64,000 bases of DNA from an uncultured Acidobacteriota bacterium (lineage in GTDB: Bacteria > Acidobacteriota > Thermoanaerobaculia > Gp7-AA8): positions 28,246 to 92,245 of the forward strand of contig CAVUKB010000007.1 in assembly GCA_963741955.1 (NCBI GenBank). The letters are read 5' to 3'. The notes under the pieces are model-generated. The model searched no databases and was not told the origin of the DNA. It was given only the letters and a program-made list of their open reading frames with translations. A program made the translations under genes and the position numbers. This document shows positions 3,560 through 58,058 of this stretch, piece after piece; the stretch's first letter is position 1; each line of letters opens with the position of its first letter.

Positions 3560-4420
3560 ATCATGGATCCGCACCGCTCGGGAACCTTGCAGGTTGAGGG
3601 GTGCGGATCCTCCGATCCGCGGCGAGAATCGCGTTCGAGCGCAATGAGACGGCGCTGTCGGCTGAGGCGAAGCCGCTCTCGCGAGACTCGCGCACTCCAC
3701 CGACGCTGCGCGCAACGCGACAGTCTCCGTCTTCCTCGGCTTCGACACGATCGTCGCCACTCGGGACCCCCGCAGATTGAGGGGTGCAGATCCTCCGATC
3801 TGCCGCGGACGTGGTGTTCGAGCGCAATGAGACGGCGCTGTCGGCTGAGGCGAAGCCGCTCTCGCGAGACTCGCGCATTCCACCGACGCTGCGCGCAACG
3901 GGACAGTCTCCGTCTTCCTCGGCTTCGACATGATCGTCGCCACTCGGGACCCCCGCAGATTGAGGGGTGCAGATCCTCCGATCTGCCGCGGACGTGGTGT
4001 TCGAGCGCAATGAGACGGCGCTGTCGGCTGAGGCGAAGCCGCTCTCGCGAGACTCGCGCATTCCACCGACGCTGCGCGCAACGGGACAGTCTCCGTCTTC
4101 CTCGGCTTCGACATGATCGTCGCCACTCGGGACCCCCGCAGATTGAGGGGTGCAGATCCTCCGATCTGCCGCGGACGTGGTGTTCGAGCGCAATGAGACG
4201 GCGCTGTCGGCTGAGGCGAAGCCGCTCTCGCGAGACTCGCGCATTCCACCGACGCTGCGCGCAACGGGACAGTCTCCGTCTTCCTCGGCTTCGACATGAT
4301 CGTCGCGGCGGATCAGAGGATCCGCACCCCCTCGGGGTCCCTGCAGGTTGACCCCCGAATTCCACCGACGCTGCGCGCAACGCCGCGGTCTCCGTCTTCC
4401 TCGGCTCCCCTCGCGCGGAG
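3560..4420. repeat. Intergenic tandem repeat array: 183-bp unit, about 4.6 copies. Each unit contains short hairpins, and the array is bracketed by a ggatccgcacc...ggtgcggatcc palindrome.
   Basis: Units start at about 3593, 3776, 3959 and 4142, exactly 183 bp apart, plus a partial diverged fifth copy. Copies are near-identical. ORFs through the array on both strands give repeating Arg-rich peptides and are unlikely to be coding. Confidence 0.85.
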
Positions 4421-4550: not shown

Positions 4551-6836
4551 ATGAGCACCGTCGAACCGCAAGCGCCCTCTCTCCCGGAGTTCGAAAAAGA
4601 AGTCGCCGAAACGCAGGAATGGCTCGACAGCCCCCGCTTCCGGGAGATCACCCGTCTCTACTCCGCACGACAGGTCGTCGAGCAGCGCGGCACGATCCGC
4701 ACGGAATACAGCGTCGCTCGCGACGCCGCGGTTGCTTTTTACGACCGCCTCCGCGAGCTCTTCCGCGAAAAGAAAGCGGTCACCACGTTCGGTCCCTATT
4801 CGCCCGGACAGGCGGTCGCCTTGAAGCGCATCGGAATCGAGGCGATTTACCTCGGCGGTTGGGCGACGTCGGCCAAGGGCTCGACCCACGAAGATCCCGG
4901 ACCCGATCTCGCCAGCTATCCCCTCAGTCAGGTCCCGGATGAGGCAGCGGTTCTGGTCCGCGCGCTCCTCGCGGCGGACCGCAACCAGCAGTTCCTTCGG
5001 TCGCGGATGAGCGAACAGCAACGGGCCAAGACGCCGGTCTACGATTTCCGCCCGTTCATCATCGCCGATGCAGATACGGGACACGGAGGCGATCCGCACG
5101 TACGGAATCTCGTGCGGCGCTTCGTCGAGGCAGGGGTGTCCGGGTACCACATCGAGGACCAGCGGCCGGGGACGAAAAAGTGCGGACATCAGGGGGGGAA
5201 GGTCCTGGTCGGATCGGACGAACAGATCAAGCGCCTGAACGCGGCGCGCTTTCAGCTCGACGTGATGCGCGTCCCTGGAATCATCGTGGCGCGAACGGAT
5301 GCCGAAGCGGCGACTCTCATCGACAGCCGCGGAGACGAGCGCGATCAGCCGTTCATCCTCGGCGCGACGAACGTGAACCTTCCCGCGTACAAGGCTGCGT
5401 TTCTCGCGCTGATGCGCCGGTTCCACTCACTCGGGGTGAAAGAACTGAACGGGTTCATGCTCTACGAACCGTCGGATGAAGAGATGCGGGACGCCGACGA
5501 GTGGCTCGAGCGGACCGGTCTGGCCGCCGAGGCGAAGGGAGCCATCGATCGGATCACCCGGAATGAAGGTTTCTCGGTCGATGCGCTCTTCGACAGCGTT
5601 GCGTCGCATCTGATCGAGATCTGGGAGGCGGAGGCGGGGCTCGAGACGTACAGCGAGGCGGTTGCGGACGTACTCGAGTTCCAGCAGAGCGAAGGCGAAC
5701 CGATCGAGATGACGCCGGAGGAATGGCGGATCTACGCGTCGCGCGCGTCTCTCTACGCGGCCCGGAAGACGGCGCGCTCGCTCGGAGTGAACATCGTCTG
5801 GAACTGCGAGCACGCGAAGACGCCGGACGGCTACTACCAGGTCCGTGGCGGAATCGAGTACGCCATCGCGAAGTCACTGGCTGTCGCCCCCTTCTCCGAC
5901 ATTCTCTGGATGGAAACGAAGACGGCGGATCTCGCCGACGCGAAGAGATTCGCGGACGCGATCCACGCGCGGTTCCCGGACAAAATGCTCGCCTACAATC
6001 TCTCGCCCTCCTTCAACTGGGATTCCACCGGAATGACTGATGACGACATGCGGGCGTTCCCCGGTGAGCTCGGTAAGATGGGATTCGTCTTCAACTTCAT
6101 CACCTATGGTGGCCATCAGATCGACGGACTGGCGGCAGAGGAGTTCGCGACCGCGCTGCGGCAGGACGGGATGCTCGCGCTCGCGAGGCTGCAGCGGAAG
6201 TTCCGGCTGGTCGAGTCGCCGTACCGCACGCCCCAGACGCTGGTCGGCGGCCCCCGTCTCGATGCCGCGCTCGCCGCATCGTCCGGCCGGACCGCCACCA
6301 CGAAGGCGATGGGGAAAGGATCGACGCAGCACCAGCATCTGATCCAGACCGAAGTCCCGAAGAAGCTGCTCGAGGAGTGGCTCGGAATGTGGGCCGACTA
6401 CTACCAGCTGCGAGGACCTCTCACCGTGGATCTGAGGCCGCAGCGGGCGGGGTCAGAGCTTCTGGAGCTGGCCATCGTGCGCAGCGACGAGAAGGAGGCG
6501 AACGTCATCTTCGCACCGATCCTGGACCGGCGGGAACGGACGATTCTTTCCGTACGCGACCAGAACACGTTCGACGAAGAGCTTCGAAGAAAGCGGCTGA
6601 TGACGCTGATCCACCTCTTCCTGATCCACCGCTACAAAGCCGAGTCGGTGCACTACGTCACTCCGACCGAGGACAACCAGTACCAGACCTCGAAGATGAA
6701 GTCGCACGGGATCTTCAGCCAGGTGAACACGGAGGTGGGACAGATCATCGTTGCGGATGTGAATCACCCGCGGATCGCCGAGCTCCTCGCGCCGGACCGC
6801 GAAGCTCTGTGGAAGTTGATCCGGAAAGAGGGGTAG
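4551..6836 (+). CDS. aceA: Isocitrate lyase, long form (ICL2/AceAb-like, about 761 aa)
   Basis: [12 protein letters not shown] catalytic signature. N-terminal MSTVEPQ... typical of ICL. ATG at 4551 with a GGAG RBS. The track ORF from 4296 is an upstream extension into the repeat array. Confidence 0.9.
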
Positions 6837-9998: not shown

Positions 9999-10159
9999 GG
10001 AGTCTGCGCGGTAGAAACTGTCCTACTGCGAAAACGGATCAGCGGTCCAGATCCGTCCGGATTTTCGGCGAGTAGCCACCGCTACGCACCTCAAATTCGA
10101 ACGAAGTTGGCCTCGCTGCTCCGCCTTCTCGCGACGGACGTTCCTACCGTGCAGACTCC
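9999..10159 (+). mobile_element. MITE (A-type, about 161 bp) with 16-20-bp TIRs ggagtctgcgcggtagaaac / gtt(c/t)ctaccg(t/c)gcagactcc. Copy 1.
   Basis: Near-identical copies at 26272..26432 and 36393..36553. Its TIRs match the ends of the IS at 34798..36390. Confidence 0.8.
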
Positions 10160-19022: not shown

Positions 19023-19235
19023 CCGTCACGCGCTCCCAGCGCCGTATATGTGTTGAAAGAAACCTGTGCCGGCGGGAACACTCTCAATGTAATGCCGCAC
19101 CGGCAGAGTTTGCTGCACGAATAAAAATGTCCGCTCATTCTCCACCTCAGCGGGGCGGACTGCAAGATCCCCTAACTTTGGTTGAGGTCCTTTCGTTGCA
19201 GTATGTTGGGACGGGCGGATCCGTTTCGACGACCC

Positions 19236-19318
19236 TTCCCGGTAGGAACGTCCGGAGCGAGAAAGCGGAGCAGCGAGGCCAGATTCGTTCGGATTTGGGC
19301 CGCTGATCCGCTTTCGAG
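19236..19318 (-). mobile_element. Internally deleted remnant of the A-type MITE, reverse orientation, abutting the fdhD stop
   Basis: ggtaggaacgtccggagcgagaaagcggagcagcgaggccagattcgttcggatttg...gatccgctttcg matches the reverse complement of the MITE with about 45 bp of the centre missing. Confidence 0.55.
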
Positions 19319-20182
19319 CTAGCGCAGCCGCTCGGCTCCGGCGTAGACATTGAAGCGGCGATTCCGGACGAACCCGAGGAGCGTCATCCCTGCCTCGCGC
19401 GCCAGATCGACCGCGAGGGAGGAAGGCGCTCCGACCGCGGCGAGGAGGGGGATACCTGCGACCGCAGCCTTCTGGACGAGCTCGAAGCTCGCCCGGCCGC
19501 TGACCATCAGCACCGAGCTTGCGAGCGGAACGCGCCCGGCGAGAAATTCGCGGCCGATCACCTTGTCCAGAGCGTTGTGCCGGCCCACGTCTTCGCGGAG
19601 AGCTCTGAGCTCTCCCTCCCGCGAGAAGAGCCCCGATGCGTGCAGGCCGCCGGTCACGTCGAACGTCTCCTGTCGGCCGCGTAGCTCTTCTTCGAGCCGA
19701 TGGATGGTCGCCGAGTCGATCGAAAACGCCGAGGCGGACGAACGCACATACGGGATCCGAACCGCTTCGATCGAAGTCTTTCCGCAGATGCCGCAGCTCG
19801 AGGCGGTGTAGAAGTGACGCTCGAGTCGCGCGAGATCGGGGCTGATCGAGGAAGAGAGCGTCACCCGGACGATATTGGATCCGCCGTGGGGCTGCTGCGG
19901 CCCGCATGCGGCGATCTCTGCGATCTCGCCACGCTCCCGCACGATTCCTTCGGTGAAGAGAAAACCTGCCGCGAGCTCGTCGTCCTCCCCGGGAGTGCGC
20001 ATGGTGATGGAGATGGTCTGGCGCTGCGGCGCCCCTCCGTCCATCCATTCGAGCCGGATCTCCAGAGGCTCCTCGATGGCGACGGCGTCTTCGCGATTCG
20101 CGATCCGTTCGTCCGAGCAGAGCCCGATGCGATCGAGACGGAAACTCGAGATCGACGATCCGTCCGGCGGCGATAGAGACAT
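19319..20182 (-). CDS. fdhD: Formate dehydrogenase accessory sulfurtransferase FdhD
   Basis: SCGICGK motif and GGLHA...RHNALDK. About 287 aa from the ATG at 20182 with a GGAGGG RBS. The longer track ORF (507 aa) is an upstream extension. Confidence 0.85.
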   Translation of the reverse strand: MSLSPPDGSSISSFRLDRIGLCSDERIANREDAVAIEEPLEIRLEWMDGGAPQRQTISITMRTPGEDDELAAGFLFTEGIVRERGEIAEIAACGPQQPHGGSNIVRVTLSSSISPDLARLERHFYTASSCGICGKTSIEAVRIPYVRSSASAFSIDSATIHRLEEELRGRQETFDVTGGLHASGLFSREGELRALREDVGRHNALDKVIGREFLAGRVPLASSVLMVSGRASFELVQKAAVAGIPLLAAVGAPSSLAVDLAREAGMTLLGFVRNRRFNVYAGAERLR

Positions 20183-20356
20183 GTTCCCTCCGCATGCAAT
20201 TTCCGTGGAAGGAGGATTCACGCGGCCTGCCGCTTGCATCACTGCGAGTCGATTCGGACCTGAACGAGCGGAGGCGGCATGATCGGTGATCTTTTTCGCG
20301 ACTGGCCCCTGGTGCGGCAGATCCTCGAGGGAGGAGACGGTACCGGAGAGGAATCG

Positions 20357-23300
20357 ATGAGCCGCAGGACCCGTGAGCTCCGGCCGCGGAACGAAGACGC
20401 CGACGTCGCACGCTCGATCTGTCCCTACTGCGGGGTGGGCTGCGGACAGCTCATCTTCCACAAGGAAGGAAGGATCGTCTCCATCGAAGGAGATCCGGAG
20501 TCGCCGATCTCGCGCGGGCATCTCTGTCCGAAAGGTGCAGCGAGTCAGGAACTGCTCACCCATCCCGGGAGGCTCACGAAAGTCAGGTACCGCGCGCCCT
20601 ACACCACCGAGTGGCAGGAGATCTCTCTCGAGCGGGCCATGGAGATGATCGCCGACCGGGTCTGGCGCTCGCGCGAGAGGACGTTCGAGCAGAAGCGGGA
20701 CGGACGGACTCTGATGCAGTGCGGTGGCATCGCGCATCTCGGCGGGGCGACCCTCGACAACGAAGAGAACTACGTCATCAAGAAGCTCTTCACCGCAGGC
20801 CTCGGCATGGTGGCAGTCAGCAACCAGGCCCGGATATGACACAGCTCCACGGTGCCCGGTCTGGGCACCTCGTTCGGACGCGGCGGAGCAACCACCGCAC
20901 AGCAGGACCTCGCCAACGCAGACGCCATTCTGATCATGGGATCATCCATGGCCGAGAATCATCCGGTCGGATTCCAGTGGGTGGTCGAGGCGCGTGAACG
21001 AGGAGCGAAGGTCATCCACGTCGACCCCCGCTTCACCCGGACCTCTGCGATGGCCGATTACTGGGTTCCTCTTCGTCCCGGTACGGACATCGTCTTCCTC
21101 GGCGGGATGGTCAACTACGTACTGCAGAACGACCGCGCTTTCCGCGAATACGTCGCGCACTACACCAACGCTCCCACCATCCTGAAGGAGGAGATGCAGG
21201 ACACCGAGGACCTCGGCGGCCTCTTCTCGGGATGGAATGACGACAAACAGCAGTACTCGCCGGAGAGCTGGTTCTACGAAGGTGCGAAGCGTAAGAGAAG
21301 ACCGAAGTCGAAGGAGCGTGAAGTCGCCGGACACGAGCCCGAAGGGGGAGGTCATGGGAAAGACCGCGGCGGCGAAGCTCAGAGCGTCAAGGACGGAGCG
21401 ATCGATCGTGATCCGGCCCTCGAGCATCCGCGCTGCGTCTACCAGGTATTGAAGCGACACTTCGAGCGCTACACGCCGGAGATGGTCGCCCGCTGCTGCG
21501 GTATTCCGAAGGAAGCCTTCCTGGAGGTGGCGGAGACGTTCGTCGCGGCGTCCGGTCCGGAGAAGACCGGCGCGATCTGCTACGCGGTGGGATGGACCCA
21601 GCACTCGACCGGCGTGCAGATCATCCGCACCGCAGCGATCCTCCAGCTGCTGCTCGGAAACATCGGACGCCCCGGCGGTGGAATCCTCGCCCTGAGGGGT
21701 CATGCCTCCATTCAGGGCTCCACCGACATTCCGACGCTCTACGACATCCTCCCCGGCTATCTCGCGATGCCCTTCTTCGAGGCGGATTCCGATTCCCTCA
21801 AGCAGTACATCCGGAAGCATTCCGCGAAGACCGGCTGGTGGGCGAACTTCGACAAGTACATCGTCAGCCTCCTCAAAGCCTACTTCGGCGAAGCAGCGAC
21901 GAAGGAAAACGAATACGGATTCCATTGGCTGCCGCGGGTGACCGGCGACCACTCGCACCAGGGCTACTGGCTGGAGATGATGGACGGCGGACTCGAGGGG
22001 CTGTTCGTGATGGGACAGAACCCTGCGGTCGGTGCGCCGAACGCAGGGTTGGAGCGGAAAGCGCTCGCGAAGCTCAAATGGCTCGTGGTGCGCGACCTCG
22101 TCGAGACGGAGACGGCGAGCTTCTGGTACGACTCGGCGGAAGTCAGGCGCGGGGAGGTGAAGCCGGAAGAGATCGGGACGGAAGTCTTTCTGATGCCCGC
22201 GGCCGGGCACGCCGAGAAGGAAGGGACGTTCACCAACACGCAGAGGCTCCTGCAATGGCACGAGAAGGCGGTCGATCCCCCCGGCGACGCCCGGAGCGAG
22301 ACGTGGTTCGTCGTCCATCTCGGCAATCTCCTCAAGGAAAAAGCGAAGGCGGAGGGGGGGCCGCGTAACGAAGGACTGAACGCACTCTGGTGGGACTACG
22401 AGCTCGAAGGACGGATGGGCGAGCCGAACGTTCAGCAGATTCTCGCGGAGATCAACGGCTGGACGGTGAAGGACCGGAAGCTCGTGAGCGGCTTCACCGA
22501 CCTGAAGGCGGACGGCTCCACCGCTTGCGGATGCTGGATCTACTCCGGAGTCTTTCCGTCTCACGACGAGAACAAGGCTCACAAGCGCGATCCTCGAGGC
22601 CCGTACGGTCACGGGTGGGGATTCGCCTGGCCCTCGGACCGGAGGATTCTCTACAACCGCGCGTCGGCCCGGCCGGACGGGCAGCCCTGGAGCGACAAGA
22701 AGAAGCTCATCTGGTGGGATGAAGAGAAGGGCGAATGGACGGGAGACGACGTTCCGGATTTCACGAAAGACAAACGCCCGGACTACAAGCCGAAGAAGAC
22801 GTCGAGAGGCGATGCGGGAACGGCCGGCGACCAGCCGTTCATCATGCATTCGGATGGAGTCGGATGGATCTGGGTTCCGTCGGGACTGAAAGACGGACCG
22901 CTCCCGACCCATTACGAACCGCTGGAGTCGCCGGTCAGAAATCCGCTGTACGAGACGCAGGTCAACCCGGCCGCCGACCGGAAGGAACGCCCCGACAATC
23001 CGTACGCGTCGTCACCTGATCCGAAGTTTCCCTACGTCCTCACGACGTACCGGCTGACCGAGCACCATACCGCAGGCGGGATGACCCGGCCGCTCTCACA
23101 TCTCGCCGAGCTTCAACCGGAGCTGTTCTGCGAGATCTCGCCCGAGCTCGCCGCGGAAGCGGGAGTCGAGCATGGGTCGTGGGCGAGGATCTCCACCCCG
23201 AGGGGAGAAATCCGCGCGCGGGTGATGGTCACCGGAAGGATGCGGTCGATGGAGGTGGAGGGGAAAGTCATCCATCAGGTGGGACTGCCGTATCACTGGG

Positions 23301-25940: not shown

Positions 25941-26090
25941 CGACTCTTCCTTTCGCCCGGACGATGAACGGTGAGAGCTCCGGGCCGGGTCGTTTGCACG
26001 CCGATGTTATCAAAGTGTCGCGATGGAGGGTCATCTCCTCCGAGGCGGATTTTCGCATTCGGAGCAGGTTCTGCTGATGAGGAGGGGCCA

Positions 26091-26269
26091 GCCCGCATTT
26101 CTCACACCGTCTCGTCGCGAGGAGGCGGAGAGTGGCTTGGATGCAAGGCGCGCGCAGTTTCGGCGACGAAGGCATAGTGGTGACTATGTTGAGGAGCCGA
26201 AGCTGTGCGCAACGTGGCAGACAGGCCGCTATCCGTCTCCGCAGCAGAGACGATGTGAGAAATGCGGGC
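26091..26269 (+). mobile_element. B-type non-autonomous element (about 179 bp) with 16-bp TIRs gcccgcatttctcaca / tgtgagaaatgcgggc. Copy 1.
   Basis: Second copy at 34617..34795 (about 90% identical). Both are followed by TA and then an A-type TIR. Confidence 0.7.
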
Positions 26270-26271
26270 TA

Positions 26272-26432
26272 GGAGTCTGCGCGGTAGAAACTGTCCTACT
26301 GCGAAAGCGGATCAACGGTCCAAATCCGCCCGGATTTTCGGCGAGTAGCCACCGCTACGCACCTCAAATCCGAACGAATTTGGCCTCGTTGCTCCGCTTT
26401 CTCGCTACGGACGTTTCTATCGCGCAGACTCC
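26272..26432 (+). mobile_element. MITE A-type, copy 2
   Basis: About 95% identical to the copies at 9999 and 36393. Perfect TIRs. Confidence 0.8.
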
Positions 26433-26446
26433 TAGAAGTCCGATCG

Positions 26447-27187
26447 CTACTGCAGCTCGCGGAACCAGCGGTTCGCGCGGGGAAGGAAGTAGTGGCCGTA
26501 ATCGAGCGAGAACGCCACCGCGGTGGCTCGGCCGACGATGCGCTTGCGGGGGATCGGCCCGAGATAACGGCTGTCGTAACTGTCGTCGCGATTGTCGCCC
26601 ATCACGAAATACGAATTCGGGGGGACCTGGATCGGACCATACGTGCGAAGGGCTGGAGCATCGGGGAGAAGCATGATGTCGTGATGCACGCCGTCGAGGT
26701 TTTCCTGTGCGATCTCGACGCGTGAGCCGCGGCGCACTCCCTCCGCATCGACGGCGTCTCCTTCGAGCAACCGGTACGACATCGCTCTTCCGTTGATCAC
26801 CACCCGTTCGTCGCGGATCTCGATCACGTCACCGGGAAGCCCGATCACCCGTTTCACCAGGCGCGTGCCGTCCTTCGGTGAGAAAAAGACGACGATGTCG
26901 CCGCGTTTCGGATTGGTCCAGGTCGAGATGTGCGTGGTGGTGAAGGGAACCTTCAGGTCGTACGCGACCTTGTTCACCACGACACGGTCGCCTTCGACGA
27001 TGGTCGGTTTCATCGAAGCGGTGGGGACGTCGTTCCAGTCCGCGAGGGCCGAGCGGAGCGACCCGAGGCAGATGGCGATGATCAGAAACGGAAGAATCCA
27101 CTCTTTCCAGAGGTAGCGTGCACCTCGAGTCACACTGCTCTCCGGCTCTGCGGCGTCGCCGGCCGTCTCTCTGATCGCGTCGGACAT
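26447..27187 (-). CDS. lepB: Signal peptidase I
   Basis: SMKPTIVEGDRVVVNK (S26 box B), GDNRDDSYDSRY (box E). Start uncertain (27187 or 27247). Confidence 0.85.
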   Translation of the reverse strand: MSDAIRETAGDAAEPESSVTRGARYLWKEWILPFLIIAICLGSLRSALADWNDVPTASMKPTIVEGDRVVVNKVAYDLKVPFTTTHISTWTNPKRGDIVVFFSPKDGTRLVKRVIGLPGDVIEIRDERVVINGRAMSYRLLEGDAVDAEGVRRGSRVEIAQENLDGVHHDIMLLPDAPALRTYGPIQVPPNSYFVMGDNRDDSYDSRYLGPIPRKRIVGRATAVAFSLDYGHYFLPRANRWFRELQ

Positions 27188-27284
27188 GCTTAGGATCCCT
27201 TTCGTGCCTGCCGGACAGAACATCGGGGTACGGTTCATTGCTTCCATCAGGGACCGCCGCGCACGGCGGCGGAGGTTTCGAGAG

Positions 27285-33768: not shown

Positions 33769-34059
33769 GGGGCTCCCTGGACGATCCGGGCGACGACTCT
33801 GACACTCATTGCGGCCCGGCGATTCGACAATTCTGTAACGTTTCGTCGCACGGCCGTCTTCCTCTAACTGCCCCCCAGGTCGTGGCTGAAGTGTGACGAT
33901 CTCCCCATCCTTTCCTGACAGGACCGTGCGATTGTAAAAACGGAGTAATTCCACCCATTTGGGGGATGACGCCGGGGGAGCCGCGGGCCGATCATGAAGA
34001 TCCGGGATGAAACGGAAGCGGTGGGGAAGACACCCAGTCATGCAGGAGGCGGGACTCAA

Positions 34060-34617
34060 ATGGGTCGCTACATCCAGAAGGTATCGATCGGATCGAGGGA
34101 GACGTGGGTCGGCTGGATCCTCGACGGCATCGAAGGGGAGATCGACGGATTGACTCCGGCCGACGAGATGTCGGAAGAGGAGCTTGCCCTGAAAGGGGTC
34201 CGCGAGTTCCATCAGGCTCCGCGGGCCATGCTCGGTCAGGTCGAGAAGCGTCGTCGTCGCCGGATCCGGCTCTCGGCGCCCCTGCAGGCGAACGTCAATT
34301 CACGGACGGCGGAAGTGTGGGATCTGAGCTCGAGCGGAGTCGGGATCCAGCACCAGTTCAAGCTCAAACCCGCCACGGAGATCACGGTGGAGATCCAGGG
34401 CCCGGAAGGCCGGAGGTCACTCCGGTTCGAGGTGCTTCGCTGCGAGCTCTCCCGGAGTCTGAAGGCGACCGGAGAGATCCTCTACTACTCGGCGCTCAGA
34501 CTCGCGGATGGAGCGATGGACGCCGGCGAGTTTCTCCGGCGGTTGATGGACCGCAATGCGGACAACGCGTTCGGCCTCCCGGACGGGGCGGCGCGTTCAC
34601 GTCACGCATTCCTCTAG
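34060..34617 (+). CDS. PilZ domain protein (c-di-GMP receptor)
   Basis: RRRRRIR (RxxxR) and DLSSSGVGI (DxSxxG) motifs. AGGAGG RBS before the ATG at 34060. Confidence 0.6.
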   Translation: MGRYIQKVSIGSRETWVGWILDGIEGEIDGLTPADEMSEEELALKGVREFHQAPRAMLGQVEKRRRRRIRLSAPLQANVNSRTAEVWDLSSSGVGIQHQFKLKPATEITVEIQGPEGRRSLRFEVLRCELSRSLKATGEILYYSALRLADGAMDAGEFLRRLMDRNADNAFGLPDGAARSRHAFL

Positions 34618-34795
34618 CCCGCATTTCTCACACCGTCTCGTCGCGAGGAGGCGGAGAGTGACTTGGATGCAAGGCGCGCCCGGCTTCGGCGACGAAGGCA
34701 TAGTGGTGACTATGTCGAGGAGCCGAAGCGGGGCGCAACGCAGCAGACACACCGCTATCCGTCTCCGCAGCAGAGATGGTGTGAGAAATGCGGGC
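34617..34795 (+). mobile_element. B-type element, copy 2, directly 5' of the IS
   Basis: Same TIRs as 26091..26269. The junction reads gcgggc-TA-ggagtctgcgcggtag. Confidence 0.7.
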
Positions 34796-34797
34796 TA

Positions 34798-36390
34798 GGA
34801 GTCTGCGCGGTAGGACGAAACTTCGGCGCTTCCTGAAGATCTCGGAAGACGTCCACTCGCGAGCGGCACAACCGCGGCACCGAAGCGCCTTCAGGTTGAT
34901 GGTGCCGTTCTCGGGGAGTTGGCAGCGCGAAACACTTGTTCGGCGGGACTTTTCGGGGGTTGGATACTGCTCTGCCGCGGCTATTCGAGCGCAACCAGAG
35001 CGCTCATTCGCTTTAGATTGATCACCAGGCACACCAGAGCCCATTCGCCGGCAACTTTGCGCATCCCGCGGAGACTGAATCGTCGAAAGCCGAGAACGTT
35101 TTTGACCCAGCCAAACACCGGTTCAACGATTGCCTTTCGCCGGCGATAGACCGCCTTGCCTGGAGGTGAGTCCAACTTCTGCTTCATCCGCAGAGTCGCG
35201 GGGAGCGTCGTCTCAGCTGCGGCTTCTTTACCTTCTCGTCCGAGAGAAACATAGGCATCGATCTTCTTCTGCTCCAACTCGATGAACGAGGTTTCCGATC
35301 TGTAGCCGGCGTCTGCAACAACCTGGTCGGGAGTTGTTTCGCAATTCTGTTCGACCACCTCGACCAAAGGCAGGAGTGATCCGCTGTCCGCCGCAGATTG
35401 TGTGATCTCGAATCCAACGATGAGTTGGTTATAGGCATCAACTGCGATCTGCGCGTTGTAGCACTGCTGAAATCCTTCCTGGGACTTCATGATTCGGCTC
35501 TCGGAATCGGTGAAGTTTTCTTGCGCTTTGTCATCAGGTACGCCGAACTTCCGTTTGAATGGCTTACCCTTCTTCCTGGCCGGATCATCGTCGCCTTCGG
35601 AGCGACCATCCTTCGTGTCCTGTTCCCGCTGCCGTTGTTCGAGTCGCTCTCGTGCCTCTTTGATTTTTTGGATACGAGTCTCCCGGCGCTGGAGCTCTTC
35701 GGGCAACTCATCCCCGCGTCGATCAACTCCGTACTCGGCATCCTCCCGGGCATCCTCCTCCGCCGCGGTGGCCAAAATGTCCGCGATCTCCTTCTCGAGT
35801 TTTGCTTGTTCCTTCTTCATCCGATCGTAGCTCATCGCCTTGTGCTTGCTGGCATTCGCTCGGACCTTCGACCCGTCGATTGCAATCCTCCCGAGCGTAA
35901 CTAACCCTGTTTCCTGGGCGGTCCGAATGATCTGGACCAGTAAGGAGCTGAACGCGTCCACATGCTCGAGCCGAAAGTCGCAGATGGTTCGATGCGACGG
36001 AAAGTTCCCGGCCGCAAGATACCGGACGGCGACATCTTCATCGATCCGCCGGGCAATCTTGCGCGAGGAGAACGTTCCCGTCAGGTACGAATAGATGATC
36101 AACTTGAGCATCATCCTTGGCTCGTACGGCTGCTTCCGTCTCCCGTCGCCTTTGTACGGCTCGTAGAATGCACTCAGATCGAGCTGATCGACGATGTCGA
36201 AAACGAAGTGCGCCAAGTGACCCTCAGGGAGCCAGTCATATGGCGAGGGCGGAAGCAGCAGCGACTGCTCCGGTCGGTATGGCCTATACGTGGTCGGCAT
36301 GACCCAATCTTACCATATTATTGTTATTACTAATCATACCCTTTTATCATGTTCCTTTGCCGTGCACCGGTTTTCTACCGCGCAGACTCC
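34798..36390 (-). mobile_element. Complete IS element, IS1182-like (IS5 superfamily), about 1.6 kb, with TIRs ggagtctgcgcggtag shared by the A-type MITEs
   Basis: Left end ggagtctgcgcggtaggacgaaac. Right end gttttctaccgcgcagactcc. One DDE transposase ORF inside. Confidence 0.75.
34981..36300 (-). CDS. IS1182/IS5-superfamily DDE transposase
   Basis: N-terminal DUF772-like MMLKLIIYSYLTGTFSSRKIARRI. DGSKVRANAS. Coiled-coil insert. C-terminal VEPVFGWVKNVLGFRRFSLRGMRKVAGEWALVCLVINLKRM. Confidence 0.8.
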   Translation of the reverse strand: MPTTYRPYRPEQSLLLPPSPYDWLPEGHLAHFVFDIVDQLDLSAFYEPYKGDGRRKQPYEPRMMLKLIIYSYLTGTFSSRKIARRIDEDVAVRYLAAGNFPSHRTICDFRLEHVDAFSSLLVQIIRTAQETGLVTLGRIAIDGSKVRANASKHKAMSYDRMKKEQAKLEKEIADILATAAEEDAREDAEYGVDRRGDELPEELQRRETRIQKIKEARERLEQRQREQDTKDGRSEGDDDPARKKGKPFKRKFGVPDDKAQENFTDSESRIMKSQEGFQQCYNAQIAVDAYNQLIVGFEITQSAADSGSLLPLVEVVEQNCETTPDQVVADAGYRSETSFIELEQKKIDAYVSLGREGKEAAAETTLPATLRMKQKLDSPPGKAVYRRRKAIVEPVFGWVKNVLGFRRFSLRGMRKVAGEWALVCLVINLKRMSALVALE

Positions 36391-36392
36391 TA

Positions 36393-36553
36393 GGAGTCTG
36401 CGCGGTAGAAACTGTCCTACTGCGAAAGCGGATCAACGGTCCAAATCCGCCCGGATTTTCGGCGAGTAGCCACCGCTACGCACCTCAAATCCGAACGAAT
36501 TTGTCCTCGTTGCTCCGCTTTCTCGCTACGGACGTTTCTACCGCGCAGACTCC
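36393..36553 (+). mobile_element. MITE A-type, copy 3, separated from the IS right end only by TA
   Basis: Junction gactcc-TA-ggagtc forms a palindrome. Confidence 0.8.
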
Positions 36554-36657
36554 TAGCGGCGAGGAGGGATTCCGCGACGTGATTCGTCCCTCCCGGCGGA
36601 GTCGCTGAACCTTCGTCTCCCTCTTCTCTTCGGATCTCATGCGATAATCGCCCGGTT

Positions 36658-45121: not shown

Positions 45122-45679
45122 ATGATCCGGGCTAGAATGCGGAACAGCAACACGATCGAACGGTCCTCGCCCGTGAAACAGATCTCAGACTGCACAGGGA
45201 TTCTCGACTGGATCCCCTCGAGCGCGCTTCGTCGCGACAGCGTCCTGCGTCACGCAGACGACGTTTATGCGGAGCTTCAGTGGAAGCGCTCCTTCGGTGC
45301 GATCGCGGAGGCGGAGACTTTCGAAGCGAAGTGGTCGCTGAAGCTGGAGGGATTTCTCTTCCGGCAGTGGGTCACGATCCGGAAGCCCGGCGAGTCGATG
45401 CCGGTGGCGATGTTCCAGGCCTCTCCCAGCTTCAACGGCACACTCGAGTTTCCCGACGGACATCGCTACCACTGGGACTCGAACTTCTGGCTCACCCGGT
45501 GGATCTGGAGCGATACACGCGGAATGGAGCTGATCCGCATGCAGCGCCATCTCTCGCTCCGGACCGAAGGGTGCGTCGAAGTGGTGTCCGACGAGAGTAT
45601 CGGCAACCCGGACCTCCCGCTCCTCACGGTCCTCGGGTGGTACCTGATCGTTCTGGTGACGGACCTCAGACCAGGATGA
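45122..45679 (+). CDS. Hypothetical protein
   Basis: Coding-like codon usage. C-terminal hydrophobic helix. No family recognised. Confidence 0.4.
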   Translation: MIRARMRNSNTIERSSPVKQISDCTGILDWIPSSALRRDSVLRHADDVYAELQWKRSFGAIAEAETFEAKWSLKLEGFLFRQWVTIRKPGESMPVAMFQASPSFNGTLEFPDGHRYHWDSNFWLTRWIWSDTRGMELIRMQRHLSLRTEGCVEVVSDESIGNPDLPLLTVLGWYLIVLVTDLRPG

Positions 45680-51431: not shown

Positions 51432-51572
51432 CGCTTCGGGATTCTAGCCCGGATTTCCGATCCGCCTGGTCGCACCGAAGCGAGGAGTTCGAAAGCCCTT
51501 CAGGCGGAGGAGTGGACCAGTGAGGCGGCTCTCGTCGGACGCCGCGCACGACCGCGTTCGAGAAGTGTCGGG

Positions 51573-56325: not shown

Positions 56326-56460
56326 TCAGAGCCTGCGGGGCAGAAAACGTCCTGCTGAGACAGCGGATCAGCGGTCCGGATCGCTCCGGAACTCCGGCGC
56401 GCACCCGGCCGCGCTGCTCCTCTTTCTCGCAACGGGATTTCTGGCGTGCAGGATCCTGCA
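56326..56460 (+). mobile_element. Degenerate A-type MITE-like sequence upstream of, and overlapping, the 5' end of the 56488 gene
   Basis: gcctgcggggcagaaaacgtcctgctgagacagcggatcagcggtcc... is about 70% similar to the MITE consensus. Confidence 0.4.
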
Positions 56461-56487: not shown

Positions 56488-57891
56488 ATGATGAAAAAAG
56501 TTCCGGACACCATCGATCAGACGGTTTCTCCCGATGCGGAGCTCCTCGCCGCCGACAGAGACGCCGTGTCGCTTCGTGACTCGGAATTCAGTCGTCTGGT
56601 CCGATCCGGCGAGACTTACGTCGACTACACCGGCGCAGCTCTCTACCCGGAGTCGCTCGTCCGCGATCACCACGCGCTGCTGCTGGAGGAGGTCTCGGGA
56701 AATCCGCACTCGACGAGCCCGGCCGCCGCCCGTTCGACCCAGCGGCTCACCGGGACGCGCGATCGCATTCTCGCGTTCTTCAACGCACCGACCGACGAGT
56801 ACGAGGTGATCTTCACTCCGAACGCGTCGGGCGCTCTTCGCATCGTCGGCGAAGCGTACCCGTTCGGATGCAACGGGCGGTACCTGCTGACCTCGGACAA
56901 CCACAACTCCGTCAACGGCATTCGTGAATATGCCCGCGCGCGCGGTTCCGACGTCCGCTACATCCCGATCACCCTCTCGGATCTGCGCCTCGACGCGGCC
57001 GTCCTCGCCGCGGAGCTCGAGGGAGGGTGCCGTGTTTCGCCACGTCTGTTCGCGTATCCGGCTCAGTCCAACTTCTCCGGCGTGCAGCATTCCCTCCAAT
57101 GGATCGAGAAGGCGCACCAATGCGGGTGGGACGTGCTGCTCGACGCCGCAGCCTTCGTTCCGACCAACCGGCTCGATCTGTCGCTCCACAAGCCGGAATT
57201 CGCGGTGGTCTCCTTCTACAAAATGTTCGGCTATCCGACCGGGATCGGTGCGCTCATCGCCAAGCGATCCGCGCTCGCGCGGCTGCACCGTCCATGGTTC
57301 GCCGGAGGGACCATCACCGTGGCGTCCGTGAAGGCAGAGCGCTACGCGCCGGCGCGCGACGAGGCCGCGTTCGAAGACGGTACCCAGGATTTCCTTTCCA
57401 TCCCCGCGATCGCTCTCGGCCTCGATTACCTCGAACGCCTCGGAATCGATCGAATCCATCGGCGGGTGGAGCTTCTCACCGGCTGGACCCTTCGGGAGCT
57501 CGAATCGCTCCACCATGCGAACGGCAGTCCGCTGGTGCACATCTACGGTCCGCTCGGCTCGGAAGAGCGCGGAGGAACCATCGCGCTGAATGTATTCGAC
57601 GCGTCGGGCGAAATGGTGGATCACCGGGTGGTCGAAGCTCTCGCGTCTCGTGCCGGCATCTCACTACGGACCGGCTGCTTCTGCAATCCCGGTGCGGGAG
57701 AGACGGCGCTGGAGATACCCAAACAGCGGATCGTCACCTGCTTCGAGGAGTCCGACGGGAGGCTCACGCTCGATGACTTCAAGGTCTGCCTGCACGGCGG
57801 CAGCGGCGCGGTCCGGATCTCGTTCGGATACGCGAGCGTCCTCGAGGACGCTCGGCGGGTCGTGGAGTTCGTCTCGCGATTCCTCGACTGA
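56488..57891 (+). CDS. Aminotransferase class V, molybdenum cofactor sulfurase (MOCOS) NifS-like domain family
   Basis: VSFYKMFGYPTGIGAL and full-length PLP-fold similarity. About 467 aa. Confidence 0.7.
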   Translation: MMKKVPDTIDQTVSPDAELLAADRDAVSLRDSEFSRLVRSGETYVDYTGAALYPESLVRDHHALLLEEVSGNPHSTSPAAARSTQRLTGTRDRILAFFNAPTDEYEVIFTPNASGALRIVGEAYPFGCNGRYLLTSDNHNSVNGIREYARARGSDVRYIPITLSDLRLDAAVLAAELEGGCRVSPRLFAYPAQSNFSGVQHSLQWIEKAHQCGWDVLLDAAAFVPTNRLDLSLHKPEFAVVSFYKMFGYPTGIGALIAKRSALARLHRPWFAGGTITVASVKAERYAPARDEAAFEDGTQDFLSIPAIALGLDYLERLGIDRIHRRVELLTGWTLRELESLHHANGSPLVHIYGPLGSEERGGTIALNVFDASGEMVDHRVVEALASRAGISLRTGCFCNPGAGETALEIPKQRIVTCFEESDGRLTLDDFKVCLHGGSGAVRISFGYASVLEDARRVVEFVSRFLD

Positions 57892-57995: not shown

Positions 57996-58032
57996 GAATG
58001 TCGTCCGGTGCCGGGAGTCTGCGCAGTAGGAT
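57996..58032. repeat. Minimal solo-TIR element: A-type left and right TIRs back-to-back (ggagtctgcgcagtag-gatg-gtttctaccgcgcag)
   Basis: Seen directly. Preceded by another TIR-like fragment (ggtttctacccgat at about 57912) and a low-GC hairpin island. Confidence 0.55.
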
Positions 58033-58058
58033 GGTTTCTACCGCGCAGCCTTCAGTAG

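What the first reader, a model, noticed from the sequence alone, without database searches (positions are those of the whole stretch)
26091..26432. Second non-autonomous element (B-type, 179 bp, different TIRs) found twice, each time immediately 5' of an A-type element with a TA junction
The copies at 26091..26269 and 34617..34795 have their own 16-bp TIRs (gcccgcatttctcaca / tgtgagaaatgcgggc). In both places B is followed by TA and then the A-type TIR, once with a MITE and once with the full IS. Either B+A moves as a composite, or A-type elements target the B terminus. Both are unusual behaviours worth documenting.
Basis: seen in the sequence. Interest (0 to 1): 0.5.

Follow-up and report, generated by a model that had tools for sequence, protein, structure and literature searches.

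The report
Two transposons stacked at CTAG sites
The 'B' repeat is a 177-bp hairpin-shaped miniature transposon derived from IS1380-type insertion sequences; it lies next to the 'A' elements (an IS1182-type insertion sequence and its miniature copies) because both kinds insert at the very rare sequence CTAG and duplicate it, so later arrivals land beside earlier ones, which is a tidy but ordinary case.

Summary
Two 93%-identical B copies each abut an A-type element. The boundaries need one correction: B is 177 bp (26092-26268 and 34618-34794), its inverted repeats start at CCCGC, and the junction is a shared 4-bp target duplication, CTAG, not just TA.

B belongs to a widespread family of foldback MITEs. 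At least 120 metagenome loci carry its repeat, and 79 distinct complete copies stand almost always alone. Their terminal repeat is identical to that of 1.7-kb IS1380-family insertion sequences, and they carry 4-bp YTAR (mostly CTAG) duplications.

A is a 1591-bp IS1182-family element plus 159-bp MITEs. Every intact A-type copy examined elsewhere is flanked by CTAG on both sides, without B.

CTAG is almost absent from this Thermoanaerobaculia genome: 9 in 64 kb against about 217 expected from base composition. Six of the nine are duplications flanking A or B, and one lies in an A relic.

So A and B are unrelated, independently mobile elements that compete for the same scarce target. Each insertion regenerates CTAG on both sides, which produces CTAG-B-CTAG-A-CTAG-A-CTAG stacks. 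A composite B+A unit is rejected: B copies differ at 13/177 positions, the adjacent A MITEs at 2/159, and the partners differ. This is a new member of known kinds and of low to moderate interest.

The parts
26088..26091 (.). Left target-site duplication of B copy 1, degenerate (CCAG instead of CTAG)
   Evidence: Sequence. The 4-bp YTAR duplication model comes from 79 family copies.
26092..26268 (+). B copy 1: a 177-bp foldback MITE of the IS1380-derived family, with terminal repeat CCCGCATTTCTCACA
26269..26272 (.). CTAG shared as the right duplication of B1 and the left duplication of the A MITE
26273..26431 (+). A-type MITE, 159 bp, with repeat GAGTCTGCGCGGTAG; 98.7% identical to the copy at 36394
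26432..26435 (.). CTAG, right duplication of the A MITE; 12 nt beyond the stop of the signal peptidase gene (26447-27247, minus strand)
34614..34617 (.). CTAG, left duplication of B copy 2; its TAG is the stop codon of the PilZ-domain ORF 33994-34617
   Evidence: The same junction appears in three other assemblies.
34618..34794 (+). B copy 2, 177 bp
34795..34798 (.). CTAG shared by B2 and the A-type IS
34799..36389 (-). A-type autonomous IS, 1591 bp, 15-nt perfect terminal repeats, IS1182 family
   Evidence: Transposase family assignment.
34981..36300 (-). IS1182-family transposase gene, 439 aa
   Evidence: NF033551 scores 376 bits against a cutoff of 270. Pfam domains DUF772, DDE_Tnp_1 and DDE_Tnp_1_6.
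36390..36393 (.). CTAG shared by the A-type IS and the second A MITE
36394..36552 (+). A-type MITE, 159 bp
36553..36556 (.). CTAG, outermost duplication of the stack at locus 2
10000..10158 (+). Older A-type MITE standing alone (92.5% identical to the others; flanks CCAG/CTCG, degenerate)
19195..19335 (-). Degenerate A-type MITE relic with an internal deletion; contains the CTAG at 19319
   Evidence: Coordinates are approximate.
56329..56450 (+). Diverged A-like MITE relic (about 77% identity)
   Evidence: The right end is approximate.
58015..58052 (+). 38-bp A-type remnant: two terminal repeats separated by 7 nt

Best explanation
B and A are two unrelated, independently mobile transposable elements with the same insertion target.

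B is a 177-bp non-autonomous foldback MITE. Its 15/16-nt terminal repeats are those of a clade of 1.7-kb IS1380-family insertion sequences, so it is presumably mobilised in trans by such a transposase (inferred; none lies in the window). A is a 1591-bp IS1182-family insertion sequence together with its 159-bp MITEs.

Both insert at the palindromic tetranucleotide CTAG and duplicate all four bases. B tolerates YTAR more broadly; A was seen almost only in CTAG. CTAG is nearly absent from this Thermoanaerobaculia genome. Each insertion turns one CTAG into two, located in DNA where further insertions are harmless, so later insertions fall preferentially beside earlier ones.

Locus 2 is one ancestral CTAG (the C plus the TAG stop codon of a PilZ gene) that received three insertions and now reads CTAG-B-CTAG-IS(A)-CTAG-MITE(A)-CTAG. 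Locus 1 received two.

Shown: the element identities, the target duplications, their independence and the scarcity of CTAG. Inferred: the order of insertions and the trans-mobilisation.
For: B is an independent MITE:
- A genome scan found B alone between CTAG duplications in another Acidobacteriota MAG (L001).
- The 4-bp flanks are identical in 35 of 79 copies (CTAG/CTAG 22, TTAG/TTAG 8, TTAA/TTAA 3), and the left and right flanks co-vary.

B has an autonomous relative:
- L042 475-2179 is 1705 bp, with a 16-nt perfect repeat CCCGCATTTCTCACAC and CTAG/CTAG flanks. It encodes a 465-aa transposase that matches IS1380 model NF033539 at 411 bits and PF13701 at 525 bits. L099 is similar.

A and its target:
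- The A transposase matches IS1182 model NF033551 at 376 bits.
- A-type ISs whose transposases are 78% identical to the window's, and whose terminal repeat is identical, sit at no fewer than 5 distinct sites in L128-L141. All are flanked CTAG/CTAG and none adjoins B.
- L126 is flanked CTAG/CTAG and L127 CTAG/CTGG.
- A captured IS1182-family element, ISPse1, makes 4-bp duplications (PMC3281130).

CTAG scarcity:
- The window holds 9 CTAGs, against 217 expected from base composition and 41 from a Markov model.
- Six are A/B duplications, one lies in an A relic, and two lie in a repeated ATCCGGGCTAGAAT motif.
- In 28 kb of further contigs fetched because they carry an A or B element, all 6 CTAGs are A/B duplications and none is free; about 95 are expected from base composition.

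Not a composite:
- B1 and B2 differ at 13/177 positions, the adjacent A MITEs at 2/159 (p = 0.007), and the partners differ.

Pile-ups of the same kind occur elsewhere:
- A B copy nested in another B copy at a CTAG (L092).
- An A-type IS abutting an element that encodes a Transposase_29 protein through a CTAG (L129).
- An A-like MITE and a B copy 5 kb apart, not adjacent, on one contig (L014).
Against: - No empty (pre-insertion) site was recovered. The PilZ protein has no close homologue outside this population, and the other assemblies carry the same junction. The insertions are therefore inferred from duplications and family behaviour, not seen directly.
- All three B-type ends known in this species (two in the window and L126) have an A-type neighbour. 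The sample is tiny and compatible with CTAG scarcity, but it does not exclude an added preference for the GGG-CTAG context that B provides.
- No IS1380-family transposase was shown to exist in the source genome (one search was saturated and uninformative), so current mobility of B there is unproven.
- B1's left duplication is CCAG, and the lone A MITE at 10000 lacks CTAG flanks. Both must be explained as post-insertion mutation.
- The CTAG count rests on 64 kb plus 28 kb of contigs that were fetched because they carry these elements, not on the whole genome.
Confidence: 0.85

Rival explanations
1. The A-type transposase recognises more than CTAG. It would prefer the B terminus itself (for example the GCGGG-CTAG context, or the base of the long B hairpin or cruciform), so that B acts as a specific landing pad.
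For: There are three independent B-type-end/CTAG/A junctions in one species: two in the window and L126, which uses the opposite end of the IS. The base 5' of CTAG at the transposase-proximal flank of A-type ISs is G in most distinct sites, and B's end supplies GGG there.
Against: A-type ISs with the identical repeat sit in CTAG at five or more sites with unrelated flanks and no B, and so does the A-like MITE in L014. One A MITE inserted next to the A IS, not next to B. With essentially no free CTAG in the sampled DNA, adjacency is expected without any extra specificity.
Confidence: 0.1
2. B plus the adjacent A element form one composite or internally structured element that moves as a unit.
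For: The same order and relative orientation (B, CTAG, A-type repeat) appear at both window loci.
Against: B is joined to a MITE at one locus and to the full IS at the other. B copies are 92.7% identical whereas the A MITEs are 98.7% identical (p = 0.007). B alone is the rule in the roughly 79 other copies. A occurs without B at every other site. In L126 the other end of the IS faces a B-type end. The outer flanks of the B+A unit are not a matching duplication at locus 1 (CCAG versus CTAG).
Confidence: 0.02
3. B is not a transposon but a host-encoded structured element that merely resembles a MITE, such as a REP-like palindrome, a 3'-end RNA stabiliser or a small RNA gene.
For: The end-to-end hairpin is conserved with strong covariation across three subfamilies: 19 of 54 pairs show compensatory changes and 96.6% of cells are paired. 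Copies often sit right at stop codons. One strand folds markedly better than the other.
Against: Flanking 4-bp duplications co-vary between the two sides. The terminal repeat is identical to that of IS1380-family ISs with the same duplications. Copies are nested within copies. Copies are scattered in unrelated contexts across many metagenomes. There is no Rfam match, no promoter or terminator signal, and no significant orientation bias relative to neighbouring genes (10:5). Being a MITE does not exclude a secondary RNA role.
Confidence: 0.03

Closest known systems
MITEPsy1 / ISPsy2 of Pseudomonas syringae (IS5 family)
   Same: A short MITE with repeats matching a parent IS. It inserts at CTAG or YTAA and duplicates 4 nt (PMC3189936). 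This is the same target logic as B (YTAR, 4 bp) and A (CTAG, 4 bp).
   Different: It belongs to a different IS family (IS5 group), is 100 nt long and is not described as a full-length foldback. Stacking with a second element family at the duplicated CTAG is not reported in the passages read.
MITEPye1 and IS1182-family ISs of Paracoccus yeei; ISPse1 (IS1182 family)
   Same: These are MITEs whose repeats match IS1182-family ISs, are bordered by direct repeats and fold into long stem-loops (PMC11578231). ISPse1 is 1653 bp with 16-bp repeats and a 4-bp duplication (PMC3281130). The A-type IS (1591 bp, 15-nt repeats, 4-bp CTAG) and its 159-bp MITEs fit this pattern.
   Different: The host phylum differs (Acidobacteriota, class Thermoanaerobaculia). 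The strict CTAG target seen here is not stated for those elements in the passages I read.
IS1380 family (e.g. IS1247, ISEcp1)
   Same: The full-length relatives of B encode IS1380-family transposases, have repeats beginning CC and make short (4-bp) duplications. The family's published duplication length is 4-5 bp; IS1247 is listed with 5 bp in PMC3281130. The 'CC' ends and the 4-5 bp range are from my own knowledge of ISfinder.
   Different: I found no description of IS1380-derived MITEs or of a YTAR/CTAG target for this family in the searchable literature. That is absence in a limited library, not proof of novelty.
IS5 (YTAR target) and IS630/Tc1-mariner (TA within CTAG)
   Same: IS5 inserts at YTAR, and CTAG is the rarest of these four sites in E. 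coli (PMC5009759). IS630 prefers the TA in CTAG (own knowledge). The same scarce palindromic target is shared by unrelated transposases.
   Different: These are different transposase families. IS630 duplicates only TA, whereas the co-variation of the outer bases shows that B duplicates all 4 bp.

Membership tests
MITE (miniature inverted-repeat transposable element), for B | Small size (under about 300 bp) with no coding capacity | tested here: met
   177 bp. The whole sequence forms one hairpin. No ORF is confined to it.
MITE, for B | Terminal inverted repeats | tested here: met
   A 15/16-nt perfect repeat, CCCGCATTTCTCACA(C), in both copies.
MITE, for B | Target-site duplication flanking the copies | tested here: met
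   CTAG/CTAG at B2 and in L001, CCAG/CTAG at B1. In the wider family 35 of 79 copies have identical 4-bp flanks, and the left and right bases co-vary.
MITE, for B | Multiple dispersed copies in unrelated contexts | tested here: met
MITE, for B | Terminal repeats shared with an autonomous IS that could mobilise it | tested here: met
   L042 (1705 bp) and L099 (1691 bp) carry the same repeat and encode IS1380-family transposases.
MITE, for B | Insertion polymorphism or demonstrated mobility (an empty site) | tested here: inconclusive
   No empty orthologous site was found. Nested insertion of one copy inside another (L092) is indirect evidence of mobility.
IS1380 family (parentage of B) | Transposase matching the IS1380 models, in elements bearing the B repeat | tested here: met
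   NF033539 scores 411 and 393 bits against a cutoff of 180; PF13701 scores 525 and 492 bits.
IS1380 family (parentage of B) | Ends beginning CC and a 4-5 bp duplication (ISfinder description, own knowledge) | tested here: met
   The repeat starts CCCGC. The base outside it varies G/A together with the target. A 4-bp duplication is supported.
IS1380 family (parentage of B) | A cognate transposase present in the same genome | not testable with these tools
   None lies in the 64-kb window. The homologue search saturated at 8000 hits, with none of the top 120 on the 1,299,627-bp source contig. The whole genome cannot be scanned here.
IS1182 family (for A) | Transposase matching the IS1182 equivalog model above its cutoff | tested here: met
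   NF033551 scores 376.4 bits against a cutoff of 270. Source databases name the protein an IS1182 family transposase.
IS1182 family (for A) | A single-ORF IS of about 1.3-1.95 kb with terminal repeats and a short duplication | tested here: met
   1591 bp, 15-nt perfect repeats and CTAG on both sides here and in L126 and L128-L141. ISPse1 has a 4-bp duplication.
Composite transposon (B+A as one unit) | Constituent parts move together: the same partners, equal divergence, and a matching duplication outside the unit | tested here: not met
   The partners differ. Divergence is 13/177 versus 2/159, p = 0.007. B and A each occur alone elsewhere.
REP/BIME-type host palindromes | No target duplication, and association with a RAYT (Y1 transposase) rather than a DDE IS | tested here: not met
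   B has co-varying 4-bp duplications and a DDE-type (IS1380) parent.

The most novel reading that the evidence does not exclude
The B-family foldback may be more than a passive MITE. Its roughly 85-bp stem is kept by compensatory changes across subfamilies, and one strand folds 15-30 kcal/mol better than the other in several independent subfamilies. This would fit a strand-specific constraint on master copies, either an RNA role at gene 3' ends or a single-stranded transposition intermediate. In addition, its GGG-CTAG termini might serve as preferred landing pads for CTAG-specific ISs in a genome that has otherwise purged CTAG. Pre-existing elements would then channel new insertions into safe sites.
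Probability: 0.15. Interest if true: 0.5.

Novelty: new member of a known kind. Interest (0 to 1): 0.25.

Why it matters
This explains an apparently odd association (B always next to A) by a simple, checkable rule: the same rare target, regenerated by each insertion. It shows how target scarcity alone can build stacks of unrelated elements in a high-GC genome where CTAG is almost purged.

For annotation, it defines two element families in Thermoanaerobaculia/Acidobacteriota with exact ends and duplications. One is an IS1380-derived foldback MITE family that is widespread in environmental metagenomes. The other is a CTAG-specific IS1182-family IS with its MITEs. These repeats break short-read assemblies exactly at their positions. 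None of this requires new biology.

Tried and rejected
- An Rfam scan of the whole window found no family.
- Promoter and terminator scans over both loci found nothing in B. B has no T-tract, so it is not an intrinsic terminator.
- Two metagenome copies (L015, L093) looked like further B-TA-GGAGTC junctions. The neighbour there is the 3' end of an IS3-like transposase gene, not A, so the resemblance is a coincidence of six bases.
- L002 and L044 (Clostridiaceae and a bioreactor sample) are single-arm chance matches with no second arm.
- I first read the duplication as 2-bp TA with G...C as part of the repeat. This was rejected because the 'G' varies G/A and co-varies with the far flank.
- The search for an empty site failed. 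PilZ has no close homologue outside this population, and three other assemblies show the same PilZ-CTAG-B junction and break inside B.
- The search for an IS1380 transposase in the source genome was uninformative.
- Two close A-transposase variants could not be located, and the large contigs carrying a third were not returned.
- L139's perfectly palindromic flanks around CTAG, and L017's two inverted B copies around an IS4-family IS, are probably assembler fold-backs through the terminal repeats. I did not use them as evidence.
- The 123 bp of B-type end next to the IS in L126 matches nothing else fetched, so its nature (a full IS or another MITE subfamily) is unknown.
- A naive arm-against-arm count of G.U versus A.C mismatches gave no clear asymmetry in the main cluster.
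- The folding-energy asymmetry is only suggestive against a mutated-palindrome null.

Full report
**1. The observation**

The two B copies are real. Copies 26091-26269 and 34617-34795 align without gaps at 92.7% identity (13 differences in 177 nt). Their terminal inverted repeat is perfect and occurs nowhere else in the window.

Each copy is followed by TA and the A-type repeat. At the first locus this belongs to a 159-bp MITE (26273-26431). At the second it belongs to the full insertion sequence (34799-36389), which is followed by another 159-bp MITE (36394-36552).

B also folds end to end as one long hairpin (DNA dG -63 kcal/mol, z = -10 against shuffles).

**2. Boundaries and the junction**

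The junction is CTAG, not just TA. I scanned one genome per species, and then metagenomes, for the B repeat plus its subterminal bases.

- The genome scan gave four Acidobacteriota loci and one chance hit.

When the element is redefined as starting at CCCGC, the 4-bp flanks of 79 distinct complete copies are identical in 35. These are CTAG/CTAG 22, TTAG/TTAG 8, TTAA/TTAA 3, and three further pairs. In the 51 copies with YTAR on both sides, the first bases agree in 40 and the last in 40.

B therefore makes a 4-bp YTAR duplication and is 177 bp long (26092-26268 and 34618-34794). Copy 2 has CTAG/CTAG. Copy 1 has CCAG/CTAG, with one base mutated.

**3. What B is**

Two metagenome contigs carry full-length elements with the same repeat.

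- L042 475-2179 is 1705 bp, with a 16-nt perfect repeat CCCGCATTTCTCACAC and CTAG/CTAG flanks.
- L099 149-1839 is 1691 bp.

They encode 465- and 452-aa proteins that match the IS1380 model NF033539 (411 and 393 bits; cutoff 180) and PF13701. B is thus a MITE derived from an IS1380-family clade.

The family is a foldback family. Seventy-six distinct copies have a median folding z-score of -7.6, with essentially all pairs in one end-to-end hairpin.

Across three subfamilies with different stems, 96.6% of cells are paired. Nineteen of 54 pairs show compensatory changes, far above the shuffled and slid controls.

B has no Rfam match and no promoter or terminator signal.

**4. What A is**

The 439-aa protein on the minus strand (34981-36300) matches the IS1182 equivalog NF033551 at 376 bits (cutoff 270). 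Source databases name it an IS1182 family transposase of a Thermoanaerobaculia MAG on a 1,299,627-bp contig.

The IS is 1591 bp with 15-nt perfect repeats, GAGTCTGCGCGGTAG. The MITEs share these repeats.

I fetched contigs encoding homologues of the transposase.

- Fourteen contigs carry ISs whose transposases are 78% identical to the window's. They have the identical repeat and represent at least five distinct left flanks and seven right flanks. All are flanked CTAG/CTAG, and none adjoins B.
- L126 (an identical transposase) has CTAG/CTAG, and L127 (94% identical) has CTAG/CTGG.
- An A-like MITE in L014 sits in TTAG/CTAG, 5 kb from a B copy on the same contig and not adjacent to it.
- A captured IS1182-family element, ISPse1, makes 4-bp duplications (PMC3281130).
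- IS1182-derived MITEs that fold into stem-loops are already described (MITEPye1; PMC11578231).

**5. Why they are adjacent**

CTAG is almost absent here. The window holds nine CTAGs in 64 kb, against about 217 expected from base composition and 41 from a Markov model. It is the most depleted palindromic tetramer.

- Six of the nine are duplications flanking A or B.
- One (19319) lies in the degenerate repeat of an A-type relic.
- The last two lie in a 20-nt motif, ATCCGGGCTAGAAT, present twice in inverted orientation.

In a further 28 kb of Thermoanaerobaculia and Acidobacteriota contigs, all six CTAGs are A/B duplications and none is free; about 95 are expected from base composition. These contigs were fetched because they carry an A or B element.

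Both elements need CTAG, and each insertion leaves a CTAG on both sides. Later insertions therefore fall next to earlier ones. Locus 2 reads CTAG-B-CTAG-IS-CTAG-MITE-CTAG, and its first CTAG contains the TAG stop of a PilZ-domain ORF. Locus 1 reads CCAG-B-CTAG-MITE-CTAG.

Analogous stacks occur elsewhere:

- One B copy is nested in another at a CTAG (L092).
- An A-type IS abuts an element encoding a Transposase_29 protein through a CTAG (L129).

**6.

A composite B+A unit is rejected for four reasons.

- The partners differ between the two loci.
- B copies differ at 13/177 positions, but the two adjacent A MITEs at only 2/159 (Fisher p = 0.007).
- B alone is the rule in other genomes, and A occurs without B at all other sites.
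- In L126 the opposite end of the IS faces a B-type end. L126 is from the same species, since its assembly carries the identical PilZ-CTAG-B junction.

That third junction shows that A does land at B-type ends repeatedly. CTAG scarcity is sufficient to explain this. I cannot exclude an added preference for the GGG-CTAG context, and I give that 0.1.

**7. What is inferred and what is missing**

- No empty site was recovered, so the insertion order and the single ancestral CTAG are inferences.
- No IS1380 transposase was shown in the source genome.
- The CTAG statistics rest on 92 kb, not the whole genome.

One strand of the B hairpin folds 15-30 kcal/mol better than its complement in the main cluster (42 of 43 copies) and in two independent subfamilies. 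However, a mutated-palindrome null gives differences of 20 kcal/mol or more in 13% of trials. Gene orientation relative to the better-folding strand is 10:5. This remains an unexplained hint of strand-specific constraint.

**8. Comparison with known elements, and verdict**

The target logic matches MITEPsy1/ISPsy2, which duplicate 4 nt at CTAG or YTAA (PMC3189936), and IS5, which targets YTAR (PMC5009759). The A side matches IS1182-family ISs and their MITEs.

The B side is an IS1380-derived MITE family. I found no description of such a family in the searchable literature, but it is of a well-known kind.

It is explained by ordinary transposon target specificity acting on a scarce site. These are new members of known kinds, and the interest is low to moderate.

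Noticed in passing
window 3566-4414: A tandem array of a 183-bp unit, with at least four copies (three at 93-100% identity and a fourth at 67%).
   Followed up: no
window 45125-45144 and 51435-51454: A 20-nt motif, ATCCGGGCTAGAAT..., is present twice in inverted orientation 6.3 kb apart. It holds the only two CTAGs of the window that are not tied to A or B elements. TAGAAT resembles a -10 box, and at 51444 it lies 9 nt upstream of an ATG on the minus strand.
   Followed up: partly
window about 19195-19335 (minus strand): A degenerate A-type MITE relic with an internal deletion, abutting the stop codon of ORF 19319-20842. It contains the CTAG at 19319.
   Followed up: partly
window 58015-58052: A 38-bp A-type remnant made of two terminal repeats separated by only 7 nt. 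It could be a deletion derivative or an excision-type footprint.
   Followed up: no
window 56329-56450: A diverged A-like MITE (about 77% identical to the others) directly upstream of an aminotransferase-like ORF that starts at 56489.
   Followed up: no
L092 6398-6816: A B-family copy interrupted by a second B-family copy (6493-6691) inserted at an internal CTAG. This is nested insertion within the family.
   Followed up: partly
L017 1-1675: An IS4-family IS (Nterm_IS4 plus DDE_Tnp_1, 418 aa) is flanked on both sides by CTAG and window-type B copies in inverted orientation that differ by one base. It is either a real B/IS/B arrangement or an assembler fold-back.
   Followed up: partly
L129 2003-3013: An A-type IS abuts, through a shared CTAG, another element that encodes a Transposase_29 (PF21804) protein. 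This is a stack of unrelated ISs at CTAG in a different metagenome.
   Followed up: partly
L126 1-127: The B-type terminal repeat next to the IS in this same-species contig belongs to an element whose interior matches no other B-family sequence fetched. It may be the end of a full-length IS1380-type element in the source species.
   Followed up: partly
B-family copies (window 26092-26268, 34618-34794; L001-L125): One strand of the hairpin folds 15-30 kcal/mol better as RNA than its complement in the main cluster and in two independent subfamilies, with more G.U pairs on the better strand. Against a null simulation this is only suggestive.
   Followed up: partly
L139 834-853 and 2460-2486: The flanks of an A-type IS form a perfect 44-bp palindrome centred on CTAG. 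Because L138 has the same left flank with a different right flank, this is probably an assembly artefact through the terminal repeats.
   Followed up: partly
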